A DNA stretch of 64,000 nt from Shigella phage vB_SdyM_006: sequence record MK295204; one strand, given 5' to 3'. Made by a program: the position numbers and the translations under genes. This document shows, piece by piece, positions 1 through 10,089 of this stretch. Position 1 is the stretch's first letter; every line of letters starts with the position of its first letter. The notes beneath the pieces were generated by a model. It was given only the letters and a program-made list of their open reading frames with translations, was not told the DNA's origin and made no database searches.

Positions 1-2046
1 TTATAGATCCTTTGGTTTTAAGTTATCATTTATAATTTTAACTTGTTCTGATGTTAATTCCGGTAAGTTAAAAATATAATAATACAATACAGGGTATTTA
101 TCGCGAATATTGTATTCGTTAGATTCAAAAATAGTTTCTGCTTGTAATTCTATTTTTTGTAATTCATCATATAATTCTGGGTCAGAATACATCGTAACAC
201 GTTTTAATTCATGATACTGACTTGGATTAATTTTGGGTTTATAATCTTTAATATTAGCAAGGTCTTTAATCCATGGTAATTTTTTAATTACATCACCATT
301 TAAAAATTTAGTTGAGTAATTAACAGGGATAGAATACGCTGTTAATTTTGCTTTTTTAATCTTTTCAGATACCAAATCTATAGCATTTGTTTCTTCGCAA
401 TAACGATATGCGGCTGGACGTATTACATGGATTTCTTTTATATCTAGATATTCACAAATTTTAACAGCCAAACGTTCTGCAATATATTTTCTATTATCAG
501 GTGAACATATAATGCTATTATCAAATGAATACAACACCGGCCCTTTTATTTCTCTGACTTCAGAAGCTGTCATAAATTTATCACGTTTAGAAAAATATTT
601 GTTCCATTTATCTTCTACTAATGACCATACTTGAACATTAGAAGCTTTAGGACGAGCTTCAGCAGGTTTTACTGATTTATACTTCTGTCTTAGTTCTGAT
701 AATTTATATAGTGTGACATCTTTACCCATAAATTCATTAATTGAATCTATAGCATATGTATCAGTATCTTTTACTACAACACATAATGAGTCAACACGAA
801 AATCAGTTGTCATGCCTCTAATAGTAGAAATTTTATTTTTACCTTTAGCGTCATCAATGATAACTACTAAATTGTCTACAGAAAAATTAAGGACTGAACT
901 TATATTCTTCTTATATTTTGTTGCTGTCTTGTATTGACCAATTCGTACTAATTTAGGAGCATTGCAAATATAATAACCTTGGAGTTCTAAGTTTGGAAAA
1001 TCATTATACTTTTTAACTAAGCCTGCAATTCGACCAAACTTTTCAGAAGAAAACCTTTGAGTAATATATGTGCTTAATGTGTATGGCTTATTATTAACGT
1101 ATCTAAGTAAAGCACGTTCGTCGTCAAAAGAATCAATATCCTTTTTAATTTCAGCAAATAGTTTATCTGTAACTTCTTTTATACGAGTTTTAATATTATT
1201 AGTTGTTTCTTCATCATAAGAAATTTCTTCACGAGAAGGAGCAATATCAAGTTCGCCTAATTTAAAACGTACAAATAACTTTTTATCATAATCTCTTAAG
1301 ACACGTATTCCAGAAAAATCGAAATGTTCACTTTTTAATGGATATCTAATTTTGCCCATAATAGCATAGACTTCAGTTTTATCATAGGCAATACCAGATT
1401 CACTAAAGAATGCTTCTTTATTAGGTAAATATTTAACATCTAATTGTTGACCAATAAAATTAGGCTTGATATCACAGAAAGTAGCAAATACGTAATGTGC
1501 TTCACCATACCATTTAGAAACATCTTTTTCTAAAACAGGAACAGTGACTTCTAATCCAGAAGGACTATCATCTTCAACATCAAATGTTGGAATTAATGAA
1601 GGTTCACCATTGTCTAAGCATGCTGTATATCCACGAGCTCGACCTTCAAAACGAGAAACAATAGAAAATGTTTCTGTATATCCAAATGGAGATTTAGAGC
1701 CAAGACCTAATGCTCCAATAAAATCGTTTGAATCAGATTTTGTTGATTCAAAATATGTTGTGTACATATGTGTAACATCTTCATCTGATAATCCAGGACC
1801 ATAGTCTCGAATAATAAAACGTGGGTCAATAGCAGAAGGAAGTGTAATGTCAAATGATTTAGTGTGCCCAGCTAAAAGATGAGCATCTGCAGCGTTACAA
1901 CTCAATTCACGAATAATTGCTCTAATCTGATTTGAATATAAGTTTTGTGATAAAACTTTAAATGCTTTAGCAGACGTGGCAATTGTAAATTTAGTGGAGC
2001 CTTTTTGGCTCCCTAACATGGTTTCATTAGTATTATGTAACTTCAT
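1..2046 (-). CDS. rIIA: rIIA protein (membrane-associated, GHKL-ATPase-like N-terminus)
   Basis: 681 aa; N-terminus MKLHNTNETMLGSQKGSTKFTIATSAKAFKVLSQNLYSNQIRAIIREL and DFIGALGLGSKSPF match remembered T4 rIIA; first gene of T4-type map; ATG at 2044-2046. Confidence 0.85.
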   Translation of the reverse strand: MKLHNTNETMLGSQKGSTKFTIATSAKAFKVLSQNLYSNQIRAIIRELSCNAADAHLLAGHTKSFDITLPSAIDPRFIIRDYGPGLSDEDVTHMYTTYFESTKSDSNDFIGALGLGSKSPFGYTETFSIVSRFEGRARGYTACLDNGEPSLIPTFDVEDDSPSGLEVTVPVLEKDVSKWYGEAHYVFATFCDIKPNFIGQQLDVKYLPNKEAFFSESGIAYDKTEVYAIMGKIRYPLKSEHFDFSGIRVLRDYDKKLFVRFKLGELDIAPSREEISYDEETTNNIKTRIKEVTDKLFAEIKKDIDSFDDERALLRYVNNKPYTLSTYITQRFSSEKFGRIAGLVKKYNDFPNLELQGYYICNAPKLVRIGQYKTATKYKKNISSVLNFSVDNLVVIIDDAKGKNKISTIRGMTTDFRVDSLCVVVKDTDTYAIDSINEFMGKDVTLYKLSELRQKYKSVKPAEARPKASNVQVWSLVEDKWNKYFSKRDKFMTASEVREIKGPVLYSFDNSIICSPDNRKYIAERLAVKICEYLDIKEIHVIRPAAYRYCEETNAIDLVSEKIKKAKLTAYSIPVNYSTKFLNGDVIKKLPWIKDLANIKDYKPKINPSQYHELKRVTMYSDPELYDELQKIELQAETIFESNEYNIRDKYPVLYYYIFNLPELTSEQVKIINDNLKPKDL

Positions 2047-2258
2047 TATTCACCTTTAGTATAAACTTTTTTAGTATAAACTTTATTTAATTCCCAGATA
2101 CATTTTTCGATACTATGTCCTTTAATATAATATTCTATGTCATTAATAGAAACTTCTAAAATATAGTATATTAAATCAGGATAAAAGCCAACAGAATAAA
2201 CCGGAGTTAATTCACCTTTATAAACTTTCCCTTCAATATCAATTCCAATATCAGCCAT
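2046..2258 (-). CDS. hypothetical protein (rIIA.1 position)
   Basis: 70 aa ORF, ATG start, 1-nt overlap with rIIA start; identity by position only. Confidence 0.4.
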   Translation of the reverse strand: MADIGIDIEGKVYKGELTPVYSVGFYPDLIYYILEVSINDIEYYIKGHSIEKCIWELNKVYTKKVYTKGE

Positions 2259-2267
2259 AATTCTACC

Positions 2268-2498
2268 TTAATCAAAAAAGTCTTGACGTTTTTCTAGTAG
2301 TTTACGAGCACCAAATAACGCATCTTCGATAGTAGTACCAAATTCTACCACGCATTCTTTGTTATCATTATAGACTTTAACTTCATATCCAATTAATTCG
2401 ACATAAAACGTCATCATTTCATAAATGGGAAGTACGGAGACTTCCCGTACTTTTCCTTTAAACCAAAAACCAACTTCACTTGTCATGATTTCATCCAT
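2268..2498 (-). CDS. hypothetical protein
   Basis: 76 aa ORF, ATG start, overlaps stop of topoisomerase gene (translational coupling). Confidence 0.35.
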   Translation of the reverse strand: MDEIMTSEVGFWFKGKVREVSVLPIYEMMTFYVELIGYEVKVYNDNKECVVEFGTTIEDALFGARKLLEKRQDFFD

Positions 2499-4306
2499 TC
2501 TTTTCTAAGCTCTGCATTATCACCAAATAACATTTCAAAAAGTTCTTTATAATTATCAGGCAGCTCAACAACGTCGTATACCGGTTTTTTAAGAACACGT
2601 TCGTATTCTTCAGAAGTTAATGACGCAAGCCCTTTAATATATCTAGGAGAACTCCAACCTTTTAATTTCGGTTTTTCTTTTTCGTATTCTTCAGCATTAT
2701 AATACCATTTTTGTTCTTTACCTTTTTGGATAATAATTAAAGGTGTTTTACAAAAACGGATTCTTTGTTCTTTATACAGTTCTGGCCATTTAGCAAAAAA
2801 TGCTAATAATGAAGGATAAATTGAACCTTGGCCATCGACATCGGCATCCGTCATAATAGCTATATTATCATACATTAAATTTTCAGGTTTTTCGCCAAGA
2901 ACAAGTCCTGTAATAGCCATGATATCAAATGCTTCTTTACTAGCCATAATATCAACATCTTTCATACCCCAAGTATTTAAAAATTTACCACGTAATGGAT
3001 AACCACCTTGTGTATCTTGGTCTCGAGATGTTAATAATTCATTTAAAGCAGAATCACCTTCTGTTAAAAACAGAGTAGTACCAGTTCCAGGTTTTCCATA
3101 TAAGTTAGCTTTAATATGTTTTGCAACTTTAGCCTTAGCAGCTTTTTTTGCTGCTTTTGTAGCCGCAGCCTGTTCAGCAGCAAGTTTACGTGCTAATACT
3201 GCTTCAATAATTGGCATTAAAACCGCTTCATTTCTCATTAACTGAGAAGCTAATTTTTTAACGTCAATATCGACATGGTTTTTAACTTCACCCCATGTAT
3301 TTGATAATCGTTCTTTTGTTTGACTATCAAACTTAAGATTACTCATATCACGAACAAATAAAAGTAGTGTCAAACATTCTTTAATTCGAGCTTTTGTGAT
3401 ATCAATTTTAAACTTACGCTTAATCATAGGCATAAGTTCAGTACATAATTCGTCCATCAACCAATCAACATGAGAGCCACCTTTTTTAGTATGGATATTA
3501 TTAACATAAGAGATATGTCTGAATCCATCAGGTGAGCGTCCAATGGCGACAGAGCAATTAGTTTGGTCTAAGACAATAGATTCTTCATCAAACTGTTTAG
3601 AATACTTCTTGAAGTTCCCTACGACTTTCTTACCATTAAATTTAAATTCAATATCAGGAAATACAACAGCTAGTGTCATTAAACGGTCAAGTGTCACATT
3701 TTTATATACATCAGATAAACTTGTATCATCAAAATGTTCAAAATCTGGAACAAATTTTACTTCTGTTCCGTGATAAGATGCTTTTTTAGTTTTCCATGAA
3801 ATATTTTCTGCACCGTCAGTACAATTAACTGTAATTTCTGTTTCGCCATTACAAGTCACACCAACAAATAATGTAGAGAAAATATTTGTTAACGCAGAAC
3901 CAACACCATTCATCCCACCAGTTTTACGTTCCGAGTCATCGCCAAAATTACCGCCAGCTCGAGGACGTGTCCATGCAGCAACAGGACCTGGGATTTCATC
4001 ACCTTCAGGAGTTAAGACTAAAGCCTGTGGTAATCCGCGACCATTATCTTTAACAGTTACAGTATCATTTTCGATAGAAACTTCAATTTTATTAGCGAAT
4101 TTAAAATTAGTTCTAATAGCTTCATCTACTGAGTTATCAATAATTTCGTCTATAATCTTAACAATACCAGGAACATATTTTATAGTGGTATACTCACCAA
4201 ACAAAAATTGTTCATTATTTTCTGATGATGAAGAACCAATATACATCCCAGAACGTTTAATGATATGTTCACGGTCACTTAAAATTTTAATTTCGTGTTT
4301 ATTCAT
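2483..4306 (-). CDS. 39: DNA topoisomerase II large subunit (gp39 with gp60-equivalent C-terminus fused)
   Basis: 607 aa; MNKHEIKILSDREHIIKRSGMYIGSS, GyrB-like ATPase motifs (DNGRGLP, GGMNGVGS), close to remembered T4 gp39; continuous ORF covering the region split into 39 and 60 in T4. Confidence 0.85.
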   Translation of the reverse strand: MNKHEIKILSDREHIIKRSGMYIGSSSSENNEQFLFGEYTTIKYVPGIVKIIDEIIDNSVDEAIRTNFKFANKIEVSIENDTVTVKDNGRGLPQALVLTPEGDEIPGPVAAWTRPRAGGNFGDDSERKTGGMNGVGSALTNIFSTLFVGVTCNGETEITVNCTDGAENISWKTKKASYHGTEVKFVPDFEHFDDTSLSDVYKNVTLDRLMTLAVVFPDIEFKFNGKKVVGNFKKYSKQFDEESIVLDQTNCSVAIGRSPDGFRHISYVNNIHTKKGGSHVDWLMDELCTELMPMIKRKFKIDITKARIKECLTLLLFVRDMSNLKFDSQTKERLSNTWGEVKNHVDIDVKKLASQLMRNEAVLMPIIEAVLARKLAAEQAAATKAAKKAAKAKVAKHIKANLYGKPGTGTTLFLTEGDSALNELLTSRDQDTQGGYPLRGKFLNTWGMKDVDIMASKEAFDIMAITGLVLGEKPENLMYDNIAIMTDADVDGQGSIYPSLLAFFAKWPELYKEQRIRFCKTPLIIIQKGKEQKWYYNAEEYEKEKPKLKGWSSPRYIKGLASLTSEEYERVLKKPVYDVVELPDNYKELFEMLFGDNAELRKEWMKS

Positions 4307-4320
4307 TATGTCTCCTTGAT

Positions 4321-4659
4321 TTAAGACGGCATCTTATCAAAAATAAAAACATAAGCATTATGTTCTTCTACCGAAAATGGTTTAACAGAAACTTCTAAAT
4401 ATTTTAAGTCTTCTTCATACATATAAGCAGAAAAATCTTTTATATCTCTTAAAGAATGTTCTTGATGTTTAAGAAGATCTCCTATTAATTTAGGATTCTG
4501 GTCCCAAACTTTAACTGGTTTTCTATATACATGAGTGATTCTAAAAGGTCTGTTATCTAACATCCATTGGTATTTGTTGAAAAGCTTCCACTGTTCAGTA
4601 TATTCTGGATTTAATCTATATAAACAATTTTGACTTAGTTCTTTTGCTGGCACCCACAT
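4321..4659 (-). CDS. hypothetical protein (goF position)
   Basis: 112 aa ORF, ATG start; position downstream of gene 39 as goF in T4; no motif recognised. Confidence 0.3.
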   Translation of the reverse strand: MWVPAKELSQNCLYRLNPEYTEQWKLFNKYQWMLDNRPFRITHVYRKPVKVWDQNPKLIGDLLKHQEHSLRDIKDFSAYMYEEDLKYLEVSVKPFSVEEHNAYVFIFDKMPS

Positions 4660-4673
4660 ATTGTCTCCATACT

Positions 4674-4694
4674 AAAAAGGACCCGAAGGTCCTT
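4674..4694 (-). terminator. intrinsic terminator hairpin (GGACC-UUCG-GGUCC plus U-run on minus strand)
   Basis: aaaaaggacccgaaggtcctt; 7-bp stem, tetraloop, A-run on plus = U-run after hairpin on minus; sits between two minus-strand genes. Confidence 0.6.
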
Positions 4695-4707
4695 AATTCA
4701 GATTAGA

Positions 4708-5100
4708 TTAGAAAAATGCTTCTAATAATTTACAAAGAGATTCTGCTTGTTCTTTTGTTTTAACTTCTAGATTCAATTTAATACTTTTACTAGAGACTTC
4801 AGTCACATCATCTTTTGGTTGTATTTCTAAATGAGAAGAATTATCTAAAGAAACACAGTATTTGTCTAAATCAAAATCAGATAGTACATAGGTGGGATAT
4901 TCTTTTGAATCAAAAATATAACCGCCACCCCAATAAAATTTTTCACATGAAATGACTTGGTCATAATCACGAAGAAATGGTTTTTCTATAAGGTCATTAT
5001 CAATTACATACTTTTTAAAATCTTTAGAAGCTTGATGATTTTTATTACTGGTAAAATCTAAAAATGCTGACATGGATTTAAATCTAAAAGTTTTAAACAT
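4708..5100 (-). CDS. hypothetical protein, member of 3-copy tandem paralog family
   Basis: 130 aa; shares FKFKS-like N-terminal motif and LLxxIEK-like C-terminus with the next two ORFs. Confidence 0.45.
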   Translation of the reverse strand: MFKTFRFKSMSAFLDFTSNKNHQASKDFKKYVIDNDLIEKPFLRDYDQVISCEKFYWGGGYIFDSKEYPTYVLSDFDLDKYCVSLDNSSHLEIQPKDDVTEVSSKSIKLNLEVKTKEQAESLCKLLEAFF

Positions 5101-5102
5101 TT

Positions 5103-5531
5103 TTAAGCCTTTTCAATATAATCTAAAAGTGTATTAATAAGTTCACGTGCTTCTTTAACTGATGTCACAGAAGATGATATTAATAATTCCTTTTTAGGTG
5201 TATCAGATTCTTTAAAATCACTTAGTTCTAAATATTCTAGAATACTCGAATCTAACTGAGACCCGATCATAGGAAAAACATAGCTTTCTTCGCCGAAATC
5301 GTCAAAAACTTGCCCATTAGAAAATACAAGTTTTAAACCTGGTAAAGGATCATCAACATTAGCTTGCTCTAATTCATAATCTTCAAAATGGAAAAGTTCA
5401 AATGGGGTGTCAAATAAATTATGATAATTAATAAACCGGATAAATCTTTGTCTAACTGGGATATCATGTCGCTCATAATGTCTAATCAACATATCAGAAG
5501 ATTTAATTTTAAATTTACCTAAACTAGTCAT
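5103..5531 (-). CDS. hypothetical protein, member of 3-copy tandem paralog family
   Basis: 142 aa; MTSLGKFKIKSSD... ...LLDYIEKA. Confidence 0.45.
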   Translation of the reverse strand: MTSLGKFKIKSSDMLIRHYERHDIPVRQRFIRFINYHNLFDTPFELFHFEDYELEQANVDDPLPGLKLVFSNGQVFDDFGEESYVFPMIGSQLDSSILEYLELSDFKESDTPKKELLISSSVTSVKEARELINTLLDYIEKA

Positions 5532-5533
5532 AA

Positions 5534-5947
5534 TTATTTCTCGATAAAATCTAAAAGTTTAATAATTAAAGCCTTTGCATCAGCTTTAGTAATAATAGGG
5601 CTGTCAACTACAATACCGTGACTTAAATTTAATTCAGCAGGACATATATAAGTGAGCATCACTGGATTTAAACGTGTGGCATTGTTTTCAAGATTAAAAA
5701 TATAGTAATCTAAATCTGCATCAGTAAATACCATGCCGTTTTCAAAAACAACTTCAATATCATTCAAATAATAGTCTTTAGATTCTACAATTCTAATATT
5801 AAAAGCAGAATCTCTAAGATTGTTTGACACTAAAAACTCGGCAAATTTAAGTCTTGAGATATTAAAAGTTTCTGCTCCAACATAATCTTTAATACTTTTT
5901 TCTGATTTGAACTTAAAAGTTCCTAGGTCTTTAATTAATTTGCTCAT
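5534..5947 (-). CDS. hypothetical protein, member of 3-copy tandem paralog family
   Basis: Track ORF 5534..5965; start moved to in-frame ATG at 5947 (AAGG Shine-Dalgarno, ATGA overlap with upstream gene); ...LGTFKFKSEK... ...LLDFIEK. Confidence 0.45.
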   Translation of the reverse strand: MSKLIKDLGTFKFKSEKSIKDYVGAETFNISRLKFAEFLVSNNLRDSAFNIRIVESKDYYLNDIEVVFENGMVFTDADLDYYIFNLENNATRLNPVMLTYICPAELNLSHGIVVDSPIITKADAKALIIKLLDFIEK

Positions 5948-6885
5948 AATACGGCCTTTGCCCATTTAGAAGTTTTGGATTTGATTTGTTGATTCAACTC
6001 ATCAATAACAACACACATTAAGTCTTTGTCATTAACCAGTTCATATTCAGGTTTACTACGATAATTCAGCCATAATGTATCGATTAAACAGTTAATAACA
6101 TCAGCTGCTTCACCAGTAGCGCATTCATCAACTTCATCTTGACGAAATGTAGCTTTAGAATATTCGCCAACTTCTTCTACTAAGTGTGCAAATACAATTG
6201 CTAAATCACGTTCAGGTGCTTTAATACACATTTTAACAGTTGGACTAATGTCTAAAATGGGTTCACAATCGAAAGATTCAATTGTCATTTTATCTAGCTC
6301 TTTTTGGTCTGCGTATTGAACAATGCTTAAATGTGTTAATTCAAAAAATTCTTTTTCGCGCTTATTGTATTGTTCTGTTCCAAAATCACCTAAATGGGCA
6401 AATGACCAAAACATTTCACCTTGGTTGTCAAAGTATTCGCCATTTAGACTAATAGATGTAGGATGACCATCTTTATCTGCTTCCAAAATAGTTAAAGTGT
6501 TAATACCTATTTTTGAATATTTTGCATTTAAAATAGGGTATAGCTCCTTTTGTTCACGTGTAATTTGTTGTGGAAGAGCTACAAAAGTATATGTACGTCC
6601 GGCCTGAAGTAATTTACGACGTGTGAATGCTTGTGCTAAACTAGATTTTGATAAAACACACCAAAACTGGTCTTTTTCATAGTCTTCTAATTCAATAATT
6701 TGATTATTGACAAGAATTTTAGACGCGCCTTCAAAGTCAATACCGTTTTGATTTATAGAAACGGTTTCTAAAATTTGAACTTCCATATTATCAAATAGCT
6801 CAATTCCACGTTCTTCTAAAATGTGTGAAAACGAACCAGTTGAAGCAGAAGAAAGATTTAATGTATATAATGCACCGTTATTCAT
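5944..6885 (-). CDS. hypothetical protein with C-terminal MazG-like NTP-pyrophosphohydrolase motif
   Basis: 313 aa; C-terminal segment LAIVFAHLVEEVGEYSKATFRQDEVDECATGEAADVINCLIDTL resembles MazG EExxE/ExxD helices; N-terminal 220 aa unassigned. Confidence 0.4.
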   Translation of the reverse strand: MNNGALYTLNLSSASTGSFSHILEERGIELFDNMEVQILETVSINQNGIDFEGASKILVNNQIIELEDYEKDQFWCVLSKSSLAQAFTRRKLLQAGRTYTFVALPQQITREQKELYPILNAKYSKIGINTLTILEADKDGHPTSISLNGEYFDNQGEMFWSFAHLGDFGTEQYNKREKEFFELTHLSIVQYADQKELDKMTIESFDCEPILDISPTVKMCIKAPERDLAIVFAHLVEEVGEYSKATFRQDEVDECATGEAADVINCLIDTLWLNYRSKPEYELVNDKDLMCVVIDELNQQIKSKTSKWAKAVL

Positions 6886-6889
6886 AATA

Positions 6890-7105
6890 TTATCCTCTTA
6901 AATTTTCAAAAAAGAACTCAGTTTTAGCATCAGTTCCAGTTGAACTGATAACACGTGTATAAACTTCAACGACTTTATTGTTTTCAAACACATAAAGATT
7001 TGTTAAATGAATCATATGAGAAACACAAGATTCTTTTTGGGTCACAGACATTGTATTTGAATATAAAACATCTTCAAATTGGTCACGACTAATTTCGATT
7101 TTCAT
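6890..7105 (-). CDS. hypothetical protein
   Basis: 71 aa ORF, ATG start. Confidence 0.3.
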   Translation of the reverse strand: MKIEISRDQFEDVLYSNTMSVTQKESCVSHMIHLTNLYVFENNKVVEVYTRVISSTGTDAKTEFFFENLRG

Positions 7106-7152
7106 TATAAACTCCGTTGTATTTGTTTTGATGTTTGTATAGTACTAAATAA

Positions 7153-7173
7153 AAGAGGTCTTGTAAACCTCTT
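7153..7173 (-). terminator. putative intrinsic terminator hairpin
   Basis: aagaggt-cttgtaa-acctctt followed by T/A-rich runs on both strands; intergenic after dexA stop. Confidence 0.4.
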
Positions 7174-7180
7174 TTTTGAA

Positions 7181-7861
7181 TTATTTTTTAATTGATACAG
7201 GATCGATATCTTGTTCGTCTGGGACTTCTTCTAATCCAAGAGCATATCGTTCTGCAGTTTTAAGCATAATAATGTCTTTAGCACAGTCATGAATAGAGTC
7301 ATGCAAAACAAACCCGTTTAAAACACCTTTACGAATAGGACACATTGTCATATCACGGTCTAATAAAAGCTTTCTAATAGAAGTTCTTGTGTCATTTTGG
7401 TTCCAGAAAACAATGAATTCTTTTTTAAATGTATCAATATCTTCGATCTTAACACCAGAATCAAGTTCACGTTGTGTTATCATGTGTTTTAAAATTGGAA
7501 AGTCAAAAGACATACCACGAGAATATCCTTGAGACTTCCAGAAATCAATTCCTTGAGAGTCTAAATATTCTTTTAATATATCTAAACCTTCATTAATAGA
7601 CACATCCTGTGGGGACCTGGCTAAATTCTTTTTAGCTTCTTGTGATTGTCCTTTCCACCATTCAACAGTAGATTTATAGAAAACTCTTTTTCCTTTTTGT
7701 GAAGCCAAATCAAATTTAATTCGGAGACCACGTTTAACTAAATCTTCAAACGATTCAACTATAGTTGGGTCTGAATTAAATGTTATAATAGAAAGGTCGA
7801 TAACAGCCGAATCTGGCTGATTACCAAAAGTTTCTAAGTCAAATACAAAATCAATTGCCAT
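7181..7861 (-). CDS. dexA: exonuclease A (DnaQ-like 3'-5' exonuclease)
   Basis: Track ORF 7181..7951 begins at an upstream alternative start; in-frame ATG at 7861 gives MAIDFVFDLETFGNQ (DnaQ exo motif I), 1-nt TAATG overlap with dda stop; T4 order dda-dexA. Confidence 0.7.
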   Translation of the reverse strand: MAIDFVFDLETFGNQPDSAVIDLSIITFNSDPTIVESFEDLVKRGLRIKFDLASQKGKRVFYKSTVEWWKGQSQEAKKNLARSPQDVSINEGLDILKEYLDSQGIDFWKSQGYSRGMSFDFPILKHMITQRELDSGVKIEDIDTFKKEFIVFWNQNDTRTSIRKLLLDRDMTMCPIRKGVLNGFVLHDSIHDCAKDIIMLKTAERYALGLEEVPDEQDIDPVSIKK

Positions 7862-9183
7862 TATATATACCACACATTTTTCTGAGCACGAGTTGTTCCA
7901 ACATACAATAACTGTGAAGCAACATCGACTTCTGCATATTTTATAATACAAGGAGTATAAAGAAAACTATTTTTTACAGTAACACCTTGTGCCTTATGAA
8001 TTGTACTACATGGTATTGGTTTAACTTTGGAAAATGCATCTTTGATTTCCCAGAAATCATCCCAATAAGCACGCCCATTTCCTGATTTATATTGTTGGGC
8101 AACTTTACCTAAAAACATCCAAAGTTGAGTCTGGTTTTCTTCACCATAAACAACGTTAATGTAATTCGTTGTACCTTCGTCAATAGATTGAACTTTTAAA
8201 AGAAAATATGGCAAACTGATTTTAAAATCAACACCACGACATTCTAGTTTACGGTTCATTTCTTTTATTTCTAGAACTTGTACAACTTCGCCGTTATTAA
8301 AGATGATTTCTTTCATCTTTTTACCTTCAAACTTAATAGTTTGCATAAACGGCTCTTGCATTACTAAAGATTCACCCACAATAAATGGTGCTTCAGACTT
8401 ATAAAAATTCTTACGAATGATCTGGTTTAATTTGTCAACAGATTTATTTGTGTATGCAAAAAATCTATTATCAAAAAAATCTTCTTGACATTTAATTTGC
8501 TTAAAATAATCCAGCATCATATCACGTAAAGACGATGGGTGGAAAACGCCTTCTCCATTCTGGATGTTTTCTCGAATCCACCCACCATTTCTAATTTCTG
8601 TAGCAACTTCAATAATAGGTTGATTAGAACGTTTTACTTCTGTTAGATGCATTTGTTTAAAACGCTGATCTGTAAAAAATCTTGATACACCTGGATCGTC
8701 TTGTGGCTTCAACTGGGCTTTATCACCAATAGCAATAACAAGAGTCCAAGGCATAATATTATTCATTAATAACTCAAAAAGCTTAGTGTCATAAAATGAA
8801 GCTTCTTCACAAATAAGAACACGAATTTTATCTAATTCTGGAGCCTTGCGTTGTTCAAAAATACGGTGCTCTTCGTATGTGACTGGGTTTATTTTTAAGA
8901 TACTATGAATTGTAGAAACTTCTCGGCCTGTAAAATCTGCAAGAACTTTTTTAGATGCGTGTGTTGGTGCAGCTAAAACAACCCCAGGAATACCTTCTTG
9001 TTCAATAAAGTCCATAATAAACTTCATTAACAAACTTTTACCTGTACCTGCAGGGCCATTAATAGTTAAATGCGATACTTTAGCTTTCCAATTTGATTCT
9101 TGTTCATAAGCTTGTGTTATTAAATCTGTCGCACATTCATACGCTTCCCTTTGACCTTTTGTCAAGTCGTCAAATTCAATCAT
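7861..9183 (-). CDS. dda: Dda DNA helicase (SF1)
   Basis: 440 aa; HLTINGPAGTGKS Walker A, AAPTHASKKVL, STIHSILKINPVTYEE match remembered T4 Dda. Confidence 0.85.
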   Translation of the reverse strand: MIEFDDLTKGQREAYECATDLITQAYEQESNWKAKVSHLTINGPAGTGKSLLMKFIMDFIEQEGIPGVVLAAPTHASKKVLADFTGREVSTIHSILKINPVTYEEHRIFEQRKAPELDKIRVLICEEASFYDTKLFELLMNNIMPWTLVIAIGDKAQLKPQDDPGVSRFFTDQRFKQMHLTEVKRSNQPIIEVATEIRNGGWIRENIQNGEGVFHPSSLRDMMLDYFKQIKCQEDFFDNRFFAYTNKSVDKLNQIIRKNFYKSEAPFIVGESLVMQEPFMQTIKFEGKKMKEIIFNNGEVVQVLEIKEMNRKLECRGVDFKISLPYFLLKVQSIDEGTTNYINVVYGEENQTQLWMFLGKVAQQYKSGNGRAYWDDFWEIKDAFSKVKPIPCSTIHKAQGVTVKNSFLYTPCIIKYAEVDVASQLLYVGTTRAQKNVWYI

Positions 9184-9473
9184 ACTATTTTCACCCTTTT
9201 AACATAAAGTGTATCTAACATTCTCTTATAGAGTGTCGTCAAATATTCCGGTTTGTTGATTATTGTTTTTTCCTCTCGTTTAAACCAAAGGAATCGATGA
9301 TATTTTATATTGTATTTTGGTTTAAGCTCTTTAGAAAGATATTCTTTAAAACGTTTAAAGGCCTCATTAGAGAGACCTTTTGTTTTATATATCATTAGAA
9401 CTTGAGTATCAGGGTCTTGACATATAACATCAAATCCTGAAGAGTCTTTGTAGACTATCGCATAATAATACAT
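9180..9473 (-). CDS. hypothetical protein (dda.1 position)
   Basis: 97 aa, ATG start, ATGA overlap with dda. Confidence 0.35.
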   Translation of the reverse strand: MYYYAIVYKDSSGFDVICQDPDTQVLMIYKTKGLSNEAFKRFKEYLSKELKPKYNIKYHRFLWFKREEKTIINKPEYLTTLYKRMLDTLYVKRVKIV

Positions 9474-10089
9474 AAAGTTCTTTTCCTACTCTTTTATAAG
9501 AAGAATCTAATGAAATACCTAAATATAATTTTAATTTATCTAATTTAGATAGCTTATTAAATCTTTCTCCAGACTTAATAATAGTTTTTAATATACTAAT
9601 ATCTTTATCTTTAGATTTAACACATTTTTTATATTCTTTATTAAGACGTTTCATTTGCGCTTCTTTTAATCTAACAGATTCTGCTAATTGTTTATCATTT
9701 GGACAACACGCTAAACGCTTTTTAAGTTGGTTCAATTTTATTTGAGCTCTATCAAGTCCAGCTTTTGTTGTCTCTTTTGAGTTTTCACGTGATTTAATTA
9801 TAGCTTTAAGACCTTCTATATCTCGGTCGCCTTTATATTGATTATAAATTCCTTTGATAGGAATAACATTCCCTTTAACATAACCTTTGGAATTATCGAA
9901 TCGTTCAAAAGTAAGAGCATTCGGGTCATTTCGTTTAAATGACACAGAAATCGGTTCATCTGAATAAGCACACTTTGTTTGCTCACAAATATTTTGAACG
10001 TATCGCTTGGATAAATTAAACTCTTTATTGCGGGCTTTAGCAGACTGTTTTAAGTGCTTGAATTTACTACTTAATTGTTTAGAATCCAT
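9430..10089 (-). CDS. hypothetical protein, basic, coiled-coil C-terminus
   Basis: 219 aa, ATG with strong AGGAGG Shine-Dalgarno; occupies the srd/modA/modB region of T4 but no ART or sigma motif recognised. Confidence 0.4.
   Translation of the reverse strand: MDSKQLSSKFKHLKQSAKARNKEFNLSKRYVQNICEQTKCAYSDEPISVSFKRNDPNALTFERFDNSKGYVKGNVIPIKGIYNQYKGDRDIEGLKAIIKSRENSKETTKAGLDRAQIKLNQLKKRLACCPNDKQLAESVRLKEAQMKRLNKEYKKCVKSKDKDISILKTIIKSGERFNKLSKLDKLKLYLGISLDSSYKRVGKELYVLLCDSLQRLFRI

What the first reader, a model, noticed from the sequence alone, without database searches (positions are those of the whole stretch)
4708..5947. Second tandem paralog triplet downstream of topoisomerase gene
Three 130-143-aa ORFs in a row share an N-terminal F-[KR]-F-K-S motif and a C-terminal LL-[DE]-[FY]-IEK tail; they sit in the T4 cef/motB region.
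Basis: seen in the sequence. Interest (0 to 1): 0.4.

Follow-up and report, generated by a model that had tools for sequence, protein, structure and literature searches.

The report
Three diverged goF-like phage early genes
Three neighbouring small genes in this T4-like Proteus phage are real, fast-evolving duplicates of one another and distant relatives of the T4 early protein GoF, which extends a recently described phage protein family but is not a new kind of system.

Summary
Three back-to-back minus-strand genes are paralogs: A 5534-5947, B 5103-5531, C 4708-5100. BLASTP gives A-B 7e-11 and A-C 1e-4. Profiles built with orthologs give 1e-17, 3e-5 and 4e-6.

The window is a Bragavirus, 98% identical to Proteus phage phiP4-3. 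All four sequenced Bragavirus genomes carry the same triplet. It sits in a cef / MazG-like / A / B / C unit between an early-type promoter-like site and a terminator, just before gene 39.

The proteins are related to neither MotB nor Cef. They occupy the T4 goF slot. Profile-profile comparison links them to a diverse GoF alignment over almost the full length (probability 90%, E 1.4e-6). That is as strong as the link for Frd.2, an accepted member of the GoF/Frd.2/MotB.1 "LSm-like" family. AlphaFold models of A and of T4 GoF show the same order of elements.

Two caveats apply. HMMER alone does not reach GoF. The model of A does not retrieve the SH3/FeoA-like folds that the GoF model does.

Function is inferred only: non-essential early modulators of mRNA metabolism or host takeover. 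Wild-type GoF itself has no known function.

The triplet evolves far faster than its neighbours (26-39% vs 91-93% identity). Other genera expanded goF-like genes independently. Verdict: new members of a known kind, modest interest.

The parts
5534..5947 (-). Gene A (137 aa from the ATG at 5947; the mechanical ORF extends to 5965). GoF-like paralog 1, PHROG 15715.
   Evidence: ORF. The start is fixed by the ATGA overlap with the upstream stop, the Shine-Dalgarno site and ortholog annotation. phrog_15715 E 1.9e-54. A-family profile vs GoF profile E 1.5e-4 over 110 columns. AF2 model pLDDT 72.
5103..5531 (-). Gene B (142 aa). GoF-like paralog 2, PHROG 15715, the fastest-evolving of the three.
   Evidence: ORF. 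phrog_15715 E 9.8e-46. A-B BLASTP 7e-11 and profile 1.2e-17. B-family vs GoF profile E 1.1e-3 over 52 columns. Only 26% identical to its positional ortholog in Pm5461.
4708..5100 (-). Gene C (130 aa). GoF-like paralog 3, PHROG 23695, the copy most like GoF.
   Evidence: ORF. phrog_23695 E 4.6e-66. C vs T4 GoF C-terminus BLASTP E 0.009. C-family profile vs GoF profile E 4e-6 over 118 columns.
4669..4694 (-). Intrinsic-terminator-like hairpin (AAGGACC-TTCG-GGTCCTT) plus T run, 14 nt after the stop of gene C. Probable end of the transcription unit.
   Evidence: The only terminator-like site found in 4200-7400. Sequence read. A terminator is annotated at the same place in Pm5461.
7139..7167 (-). 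Sigma-70-type (T4 early-like) promoter match TTTACA-17-TACTAT upstream of cef. Probable start of the cef / 313-aa / A / B / C unit.
   Evidence: Pattern scan, 9 of 12 matches. This is weak on its own: the number of such sites in the region is no higher than in shuffles. A promoter is annotated at the equivalent place in Pm5461.
6890..7105 (-). cef (71 aa), first gene of the unit. Context that fixes the locus as the T4 cef-goF-39 region.
   Evidence: Pfam T4_Cef E 6.9e-22 and phrog_1354. T4 gene order is cef, goF, 39.2, 39.1, 39.
5944..6885 (-). 313-aa protein with a C-terminal MazG-like domain, second gene of the unit. Its stop overlaps the start of gene A. Context only, not a member of the paralog family.
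   Evidence: phrog_1247 MazG-like E 3.7e-19 over residues 202-312. Its N-terminal 205 aa against the GoF or triplet profiles gives E 0.2-0.3.

Best explanation
**What it is (shown).**
- The three ORFs are genuine protein-coding genes of a Proteus T4-like phage of the genus Bragavirus.
- They are tightly packed: an ATGA overlap, then 2-nt gaps.
- They lie behind cef and a MazG-like gene, between an early-type promoter-like site and a hairpin terminator, immediately before gene 39.
- They arose by tandem duplication before the sequenced Bragavirus genomes diverged.
- They are highly diverged members of the GoF / Frd.2 / MotB.1 family of small acidic T4 early proteins, and they sit in the goF slot.

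**Predicted build.**
- An N-terminal beta-rich domain of about 85 residues (strand, two helices, four strands).
- A poorly conserved, disordered linker.
- A short strand and an amphipathic helix at the extreme C-terminus.
- T4 GoF has the same layout.

**How it probably works (inferred, not shown).**
- Like GoF, they are likely abundant, non-essential early proteins that tune mRNA fate or host takeover after transcription.
- The N-terminal domain would bind RNA or a host RNA-metabolism factor.
- The three diverged copies would give three specificities.
- Rapid divergence suggests adaptation to the host.
For: **Real genes.**
- The triplet is conserved in order and orientation in phiP4-3, Pm5461, PM2 and SJ_PmiM.
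- dN/dS is 0.18-0.66, below 1.
- Gene packing is tight, and a terminator follows C.

**Paralogy.**

**GoF kinship.**
- Same position as T4 goF, after cef and before gene 39.
- Similar length: 130-146 aa in the triplet against 119-154 aa for the single-domain GoF-family proteins. Both are acidic, pI 4.6-6.3.
- hhalign of the 12 triplet proteins against 14 diverse GoF-family proteins gives probability 90.5%, E 1.4e-6, with 119 collinear columns covering almost both full lengths.
- The result is robust to removing the two least certain GoF rows: E 7e-7 and 1.8e-6.
- A stricter 10-sequence GoF set gives E 6.1e-5, score 33.5. The reversed alignment scores 9.9, and none of 300 block-shuffled alignments reach 33.5 (maximum 28.2).
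- Calibration: T4 Frd.2, an accepted family member (PMC12152347), scores E 2.8e-6 against the same GoF profile. MotB.1 scores 1.6e-3. Unrelated neighbours (D, the N-terminus of the 313-aa protein, MotB) score 0.05-0.6.
- Each family links separately: C 4e-6, A 1.5e-4, B 1.1e-3.
- Two A orthologs hit phrog_622, T4 GoF's own PHROG, at E 0.0019-0.0063 with collinear coverage.
- A jackhmmer chain runs from C to the Gualtarvirus 126-aa protein, from there to the Gualtarvirus 228-aa protein, and T4 GoF reaches that same 228-aa protein.
- Independent AF2 models share the same order of elements. A has strand 4-11, helices 16-24 and 30-41, strands 49-55, 62-68 and 73-75, a disordered stretch 86-109 and a helix 121-136. 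T4 GoF has strand 10-13, helices 16-25 and 27-36, strands 41-46, 52-57 and 60-63, then helix 80-85 and strand 86-89, a low-confidence stretch 99-116 and a helix 125-139.

**Function lead.** GoF(D25Y) stabilises the gene 41 mRNA post-transcriptionally. GoF is an abundant early protein and is dispensable (PMC12152347).
Against: - HMMER with the 12-sequence triplet profile against 1.84 billion representatives found only the six Bragavirus clusters and no GoF.
- jackhmmer from T4 GoF does not reach the triplet directly. The C-to-Gualtarvirus link is weak when first made (E 8.7e-4 in a 2230-sequence database).
- With a shallow GoF profile, hhalign saw only a C-terminal match of about 20 residues (E 0.012-0.24).
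- The AF2 model of A (pLDDT 72) has no Foldseek match in BFVD (best E 0.095).
[quoted passage not shown] Wild-type GoF and MotB.1 had little effect in the RNA reporter assay.
- The proteins are acidic, which does not favour direct RNA binding.
- Early expression rests only on a consensus promoter match, and such matches are no more frequent here than in shuffled sequence.
Confidence: 0.7

Rival explanations
1. Same family, different mechanism. The proteins act by protein-protein contact rather than on RNA. For example, they could bind and neutralise a host factor (Rho, RNA polymerase, degradosome) or a host defence protein. The tandem copies would be arms-race variants that set host range.
For: - All copies are acidic, pI 4.6-6.3.
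- SH3-like barrels are classic protein-binding modules, and the GoF model's best structural matches are FeoA/IdeR-type SH3 domains rather than Hfq.
- The triplet diverges far faster than its neighbours: 26-39% identity against 91-93% for Dda and DexA, with dN/dS up to 0.66.
- goF-like genes expanded independently in Gualtarvirus and in Yersinia phage MHG19.
- Wild-type GoF has no clear RNA effect.
Against: - No partner is known. The GoF pull-downs recovered essentially only GoF itself.
- The only functional data for the family concern RNA stability.
- No triplet protein was scanned against defence or anti-defence libraries here.
Confidence: 0.3
2. The triplet is a Bragavirus-restricted orphan family unrelated to GoF. 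The profile match would then reflect a shared secondary-structure pattern and composition in small AT-rich phage proteins, and the shared position would be coincidence in a variable region.
For: - HMMER finds only six clusters, all Bragavirus, among 1.84 billion representatives.
- Sequence identity in the hhalign alignment is only 12-19%.
- Fold searches with model A do not retrieve the SH3-like barrels that GoF retrieves.
Against: - The match is collinear over about 120 columns and far above the reversed and block-shuffled nulls.
- It is as strong as Frd.2 against GoF.
- Unrelated neighbouring small proteins of the same composition score E 0.05-0.6.
- Support also comes from the PHROG 622 hits, the Gualtarvirus intermediates, conserved synteny and the identical order of elements in two independent AF2 models.
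Confidence: 0.12
3. The proteins are small ligand-binding beta-barrels of the fatty-acid-binding-protein (lipocalin-like) type.
For: - The triplet profile gives weak matches to FABP9 and myelin P2 over residues 2-78 (best E 0.033).
- FABPs have a similar length and begin with the same strand, helix, helix, strand order.
Against: - The E-values are not significant, and the many rows are near-identical FABP entries.
- The C-terminal half is predicted to be disordered plus one helix, not six further strands.
- The GoF profile does not hit FABPs.
Confidence: 0.03
4. The proteins are relatives of MotB or Cef, as the first reader suggested checking.
For: Only their location in the dexA to gene 39 early region, where T4 carries motB and cef.
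Against: - There is no Pfam motB or T4_Cef match.
- A MotB profile against the triplet gives E 0.55.
- Cef is present as its own gene at 6890-7105.
- No motB homolog lies between dexA and cef in Bragavirus.
Confidence: 0.02

Closest known systems
T4 GoF (goF / comC-alpha, 141 aa, 'mRNA metabolism modulator')
   Same: - Same locus, after cef and before gene 39.
- Same size class, and both are acidic.
- Same predicted layout: N-terminal strand-helix-helix-strands domain, disordered linker, terminal strand and helix.
- The profile match covers nearly the full length (E 1.4e-6).
- Shared sequence landmarks: an aromatic-x-F-K start of strand 1, and a terminal helix of the type A-x-x-L-x-x-L-L-x-x-F.
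   Different: - Three diverged copies instead of one.
- Pairwise identity to GoF is near background. BLASTP finds only the C-terminal 22 residues of C (E 0.009).
- The linker is not the glutamate-rich run of T4 GoF.
- The GoF family motif E-x-x-F-F-x-E-V is recognisable only in C, as D-L-[DE]-K-Y-C.
- The model of A does not retrieve FeoA-type barrels.
- Bragavirus lies outside the subfamily Tevenvirinae, in which the family was described.
T4 Frd.2 (128 aa), of the GoF/Frd.2 branch of the LSm-like-fold family (Kim et al. 2025, PMC12152347)
   Same: - Equally distant from GoF by hhalign (2.8e-6 against 1.4e-6).
- Shares the hairpin motif x-N-G-x-[IV]-[FY]-x-D ... Y-[FI] with A and B, and a terminal helix.
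   Different: - Encoded at a different locus, next to frd.
- The direct Frd.2-to-triplet match is only E 0.0084 over 38 columns.
Gualtarvirus (Morganella Rgz1, Providencia PSTRCR_121) 228/126/133-aa trio
   Same: - Same operon layout: cef, MazG-like, three tandem small paralogs starting M-x-V-K-F-K-S, a D ortholog, then gene 39.
- Linked to the Bragavirus triplet (hhalign 2e-4 to 4e-4; jackhmmer from C).
- Linked to GoF (228-aa protein against the GoF profile, 1.1e-4).
   Different: - The three copies are closer to each other than to any Bragavirus copy, so the expansions look lineage-specific.
- The first copy carries two N-terminal-like units.
- All are annotated as hypothetical proteins.
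FeoA / IdeR-type SH3-like barrels and Hfq (LSm fold)
   Different: - There is no sequence relationship.
- Model A did not retrieve them.
- No metal-binding histidines, no Sm motifs and no evidence of hexamers.

Membership tests
GoF / Frd.2 / MotB.1 phage 'LSm-like fold' family (PMC12152347) | Detectable sequence-profile relationship to GoF-family proteins | tested here: met
   - hhalign of the triplet against the GoF family: probability 90.5%, E 1.4e-6, 119 collinear columns.
- Robust to changes in alignment composition and far above shuffled and reversed nulls.
- Equal to the accepted member Frd.2, at 2.8e-6.
- phrog_622 hits at E 0.002-0.006.
- Caveat: plain HMMER does not make the link.
GoF / Frd.2 / MotB.1 phage 'LSm-like fold' family (PMC12152347) | Architecture: N-terminal domain filling the first half, a flexible linker, and a small C-terminal domain | tested here: met
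   The AF2 model of A has an ordered domain at 1-85, pLDDT below 50 at 86-109, and a helix at 121-136. The T4 GoF model built in the same way has the same order of elements.
[not shown]
   - Model A has five or six strands in the expected order.
- Model A is of only moderate confidence (pLDDT 72, 12-sequence alignment).
GoF / Frd.2 / MotB.1 phage 'LSm-like fold' family (PMC12152347) | goF-specific: gene located between cef and gene 39 in the early region | tested here: met
   The T4 order is cef, goF, 39.2, 39.1, 39. The window order is cef, 313-aa gene, A, B, C, D, 39, conserved in four Bragavirus genomes.
GoF / Frd.2 / MotB.1 phage 'LSm-like fold' family (PMC12152347) | Early, abundant expression; dispensable in the laboratory | not testable with these tools
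   There is only a consensus promoter-like site upstream of cef and a terminator after C, plus promoter and terminator annotation in Pm5461.
GoF / Frd.2 / MotB.1 phage 'LSm-like fold' family (PMC12152347) | Genetic or biochemical phenotype: suppression of rho-mutant restriction, stabilisation of mRNA (known only for GoF D25Y) | not testable with these tools
   Needs experiments. GoF D25 is not a conserved position in the alignment to the triplet.
MotB (Pfam PF17613) | Match to the motB profile (KOW-like N-terminal domain plus DNA-binding C-terminal domain) | tested here: not met
   No Pfam hit for A, B or C, whereas T4 MotB scores 6e-114. hhalign of a MotB family alignment against the triplet gives E 0.55.
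Cef (Pfam PF24050) | Match to the T4_Cef profile | tested here: not met
   No hit for A, B or C. The neighbouring 71-aa gene at 6890-7105 is the cef ortholog (E 6.9e-22).
Fatty-acid-binding proteins (calycin barrels) | Significant sequence match and a ten-stranded barrel | tested here: not met
   [not shown]

The most novel reading that the evidence does not exclude
The cef to gene 39 interval of T4-like phages may be a hotspot where goF-like genes repeatedly duplicate in tandem and diverge very fast. Bragavirus has three copies, Gualtarvirus three plus one, Yersinia phage MHG19 three, and Moon and Cronus two each. If so, the GoF family would be an arms-race gene family, acting as host-range or counter-defence determinants aimed at a variable host target, rather than a housekeeping 'mRNA metabolism modulator'. 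The Bragavirus triplet would then be three specificities of one host-takeover weapon.
Probability: 0.2. Interest if true: 0.55.

Novelty: new member of a known kind. Interest (0 to 1): 0.3.

Why it matters
GoF has been an unexplained T4 early protein since the rho-suppressor genetics of the 1970s and 80s. Its family was recognised only in 2025, and only within Tevenvirinae.

This analysis adds three points:
- A genus outside that subfamily carries three very divergent copies at the goF locus.
- Related Morganellaceae phages carry their own independent trios.
- These genes evolve several-fold faster than their neighbours.

Together these extend the family and give natural sequence variation for finding the conserved core: strand 1, the N-G hairpin and the terminal helix. 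They also hint that the family's role is tied to the host. On the practical side, six 'hypothetical protein' PHROG/GenBank entries can be re-annotated as GoF-like. The finding does not reveal a new mechanism.

Tried and rejected
- **Pfam on the triplet.** Nothing significant.
- **Direct BLASTP to T4 GoF.** Only a 22-residue C-terminal match for C (E 0.009). Nothing for A or B.
- **hhalign with a shallow, mostly Tequatrovirus GoF alignment.** Only weak C-terminal matches (E 0.012-0.24). The search for homologous proteins with T4 GoF returned only close relatives above 77% identity, useless for depth. The link appeared only after I collected positional homologs from nine other genera by hand.
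- **Exhaustive HMMER search with the triplet profile.** Six Bragavirus clusters, plus two spurious repeat proteins of the SprB and PKD type.
- **PDB sequence-profile search.** Only sub-threshold FABP hits, rejected.
- **Were the neighbours also GoF-like?** I tested gene D (112 aa) and the N-terminal 200 aa of the 313-aa protein, because their sequences looked superficially similar. They are not detectably related (E 0.05-0.3).
- **MotB and MotB.1 as relatives.** MotB is rejected (E 0.55). MotB.1 shows no direct link to the triplet (E 0.36).
- **Recent duplication at the DNA level.** Rejected. The only repeat is a 29-nt stretch (83% identity) at the 3' ends of A and B.
- **Not done.** A literature search found nothing on these Bragavirus genes. 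The supplement of PMC12152347 was not available, so I could not check whether its PSI-BLAST tree already includes Proteus phage proteins.

Full report
**Where the window comes from.** All genes in 1-10,000 are on the minus strand. The region 4300-7200 is 98% identical to Proteus phage phiP4-3 and more distantly related to Proteus phages SJ_PmiM, Pm5461 and PM2. All four belong to the genus Bragavirus, family Straboviridae, outside the subfamily Tevenvirinae.

In the direction of transcription the order is:
- dda (7861-9183)
- dexA (7181-7951)
- cef (6890-7105; Pfam T4_Cef 6.9e-22)
- a 313-aa protein with a C-terminal MazG-like domain (5944-6885)
- the three ORFs of the finding
- a 112-aa ORF, "D" (4321-4659)
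- the topoisomerase large subunit, gene 39 (2483-4306)

**Checking the observation.** The three ORFs are at 5534-5947 (A), 5103-5531 (B) and 4708-5100 (C).
- A is 137 aa. The mechanical ORF runs to 5965, but the ATG at 5947 overlaps the upstream stop as ATGA, has a Shine-Dalgarno site, and is the annotated start in all orthologs.
- B is 142 aa and C is 130 aa.
- BLASTP gives A-B 7e-11 (30% identity, full length), A-C 1e-4 and B-C 0.079.
- With the four orthologs of each gene as profiles, hhalign gives A-B 1.2e-17, A-C 2.9e-5 over 129 columns, and B-C 4.1e-6 over 73 columns.
- jackhmmer from A or C gathers all three families and no shuffled decoy.

So the triplet of paralogs is real. Three details need correction. 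B has FKIKS rather than F-[KR]-F-K-S. Only A and B end in LLD[FY]IEK, while C ends in LLEAFF. The genes lie upstream of gene 39 in the sense of transcription.

**They are genes.**
- The triplet is conserved in order in all four Bragavirus genomes.
- The genes are packed with an ATGA overlap and 2-nt gaps.
- dN/dS is 0.18-0.66.
- A sigma-70-type promoter match (7167-7139) precedes cef. The only terminator-like hairpin in 4200-7400 (4694-4677 plus a T run) follows C. Pm5461's depositors annotated a promoter and a terminator at the equivalent places. The promoter match alone is weak, because such sites are no more frequent here than in shuffles.

**They evolve fast.** The table compares phiP4-3 with Pm5461.

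| Gene | Amino-acid identity |
|---|---|
| Dda | 93% |
| DexA | 91% |
| D | 77% |
| Cef | 70% |
| 313-aa protein | 61% |
| A | 39% |
| C | 36% |
| B | 26% |

dN/dS is 0.3-0.66 for the triplet against 0.04-0.08 for Dda and DexA. An exhaustive HMMER search with the 12-sequence profile against 1.84 billion representatives found only six real clusters, all Bragavirus. PHROGs files them as phrog_15715 (A and B) and phrog_23695 (C), both of unknown function.

**What they are related to.** MotB and Cef are excluded. There are no Pfam hits, MotB against the triplet gives E 0.55, and cef is a separate gene.

In T4 the gene after cef is goF, 141 aa. Direct BLASTP to GoF finds only the C-terminal 22 residues of C (E 0.009). 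A shallow GoF profile gave only that C-terminal match. I therefore collected the cef to gene 39 interval from nine further Straboviridae genera.

jackhmmer from T4 GoF on this set plus 2130 decoys converged on 17 goF-like proteins and no decoy. These include tandem pairs or trios in Moon, Cronus and Yersinia phage MHG19, and the 228-aa protein of Gualtarvirus.

With a 14-sequence diverse GoF alignment (A8), hhalign against the 12 triplet proteins gives probability 90.5%, E 1.4e-6 and 119 collinear columns, spanning 6-143 of the triplet profile and 8-129 of the GoF profile.
- Separately, C gives 4e-6, A 1.5e-4 and B 1.1e-3.
- Removing the two least certain rows of A8 changes nothing (7e-7 and 1.8e-6).
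- A stricter 10-sequence set gives 6.1e-5 with score 33.5. The reversed alignment scores 9.9, and none of 300 block-shuffled versions reach that score (maximum 28.2).
- For calibration, T4 Frd.2, an accepted family member, gives 2.8e-6 against the same profile and MotB.1 gives 1.6e-3. The unrelated neighbours D, the N-terminus of the 313-aa protein, and MotB give 0.05-0.6.
- Two A orthologs hit phrog_622, GoF's own PHROG, at E 0.002-0.006.

**The published family.** Kim et al. [quoted passage not shown]
- GoF is an abundant early protein, about 20,000 copies per cell, and is dispensable.
- It appears as monomer and dimer.
- Only the D25Y mutant stabilises gene 41 mRNA. The wild-type function is unknown.

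**Structure.** My AF2 model of A has pLDDT 72. It shows strand 4-11, helices 16-24 and 30-41, strands 49-55, 62-68 and 73-75, a disordered stretch 86-109 and a helix 121-136.

My AF2 model of T4 GoF has pLDDT 79. It shows strand 10-13, helices 16-25 and 27-36, strands 41-46, 52-57 and 60-63, then helix 80-85 and strand 86-89, a low-confidence stretch 99-116 and a helix 125-139.

**Wider pattern.** Gualtarvirus phages of Morganella and Providencia have the same operon plan: cef, MazG-like, three tandem paralogs beginning M-x-V-K-F-K-S (228, 126 and 133 aa), a D ortholog, then gene 39.
- They link to the Bragavirus triplet (hhalign 2e-4 to 4e-4; jackhmmer from C) and to GoF (1.1e-4).
- The copies within each genus are closer to one another than to those of the other genus. 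The expansions therefore look lineage-specific, or homogenised.
- Within the window phage, B scores higher with A paralogs (28-43 bits) than with the B of Pm5461 or SJ_PmiM (14-16 bits). A and B also share a 29-nt, 83%-identical stretch at their 3' ends. This hints at gene conversion and explains the shared LLD[FY]IEK tail.

**Mechanism.**
- *Shown:* three co-oriented, tightly coupled, conserved and rapidly diverging paralogous genes at the goF locus, with GoF-like sequence profile and layout.
- *Inferred:* early co-transcription with cef, an SH3/LSm-like N-terminal barrel, and a role as non-essential modulators of mRNA fate or host takeover. The three copies would provide distinct specificities.

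I put about 0.8 on GoF-family membership and about 0.35 on an RNA-directed mechanism. A protein-binding or host-factor mechanism is nearly as likely. An orphan family with chance resemblance to GoF remains possible, at about 0.12.

**Verdict.** The genes are new, very divergent members of a known (2025) phage protein family. This is useful for annotation and for defining the family's conserved core, but it is not a new kind of system.

Noticed in passing
window 2046-2498 (minus strand): Two further tandem small paralogs lie just after gene 39: 70 aa at 2046-2258 and 76 aa at 2268-2498. BLASTP between them gives E 1e-5 (28% identity). They belong to phrog_24204 and phrog_20888, which cross-hit each other; both are of unknown function.
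   Followed up: partly
L004 4864-5544 (Proteus phage PM2) and L011 6831-7511 (Providencia phage PSTRCR_121): In these two phages of different genera, gene D upstream of gene 39 is replaced by a 226-aa protein with a NUMOD3 motif and, in PM2, a sub-threshold GIY-YIG match. This looks like a homing endonuclease. The two copies are 93% identical, although the flanking genes are far more diverged, so it looks like a recently mobile homing endonuclease gene.
   Followed up: partly
window 5944-6885: The 313-aa protein has a C-terminal MazG-like pyrophosphatase domain (phrog_1247, E 3.7e-19, residues 202-312). Its N-terminal region of about 200 aa has no match. Orthologs in Gualtarvirus and PSTCR6 are only 207-211 aa, and Aeromonas phage 25 has a 109-aa stand-alone MazG at the same locus. 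The N-terminal extension is unexplained.
   Followed up: partly
window 4321-4659: Gene D (112 aa, phrog_25751) is conserved across T4-like phages of Morganellaceae hosts (Bragavirus, Gualtarvirus, PSTCR6). It evolves much more slowly than the triplet: 77% identity against 26-39%. It shows no detectable relation to GoF or to the triplet. Its function is unknown.
   Followed up: partly
window 2483-4306 vs L005 5160-6982, L002 5205-7426: Gene 39 is one intact 607-aa ORF in the window. The phiP4-3 record annotates two pieces. In Pm5461, SJ_PmiM and PM2 a truncated gene 39 is followed by a homing endonuclease, giving a split topoisomerase.
   Followed up: no
window 5110-5138 and 5538-5566: A 29-nt direct repeat (83% identity, spacing 428 nt) covers the 3' ends of genes B and A. 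In addition, the B of the window phage scores higher with A paralogs than with the B of Pm5461 or SJ_PmiM. Together these suggest gene conversion between neighbouring copies.
   Followed up: partly
L013 2278-5729 (Yersinia phage MHG19); L010 3667-4425 (Morganella phage Rgz1): MHG19 has three tandem goF-like genes after cef (129, 143 and 246 aa). The last appears to carry two N-terminal units. MHG19 also has a 196-aa protein before cef that starts VQFKSMEH. Gualtarvirus has a 234-252-aa goF-like protein before cef with two N-terminal units. Domain duplication within single genes accompanies the gene duplication.
   Followed up: partly
triplet profile A5 vs PDB: There are weak, sub-threshold profile matches to fatty-acid-binding proteins (FABP9, myelin P2; E 0.03-1) over the N-terminal 78 residues. 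FABPs share the strand-helix-helix-strand start. I judged this to be chance.
   Followed up: yes
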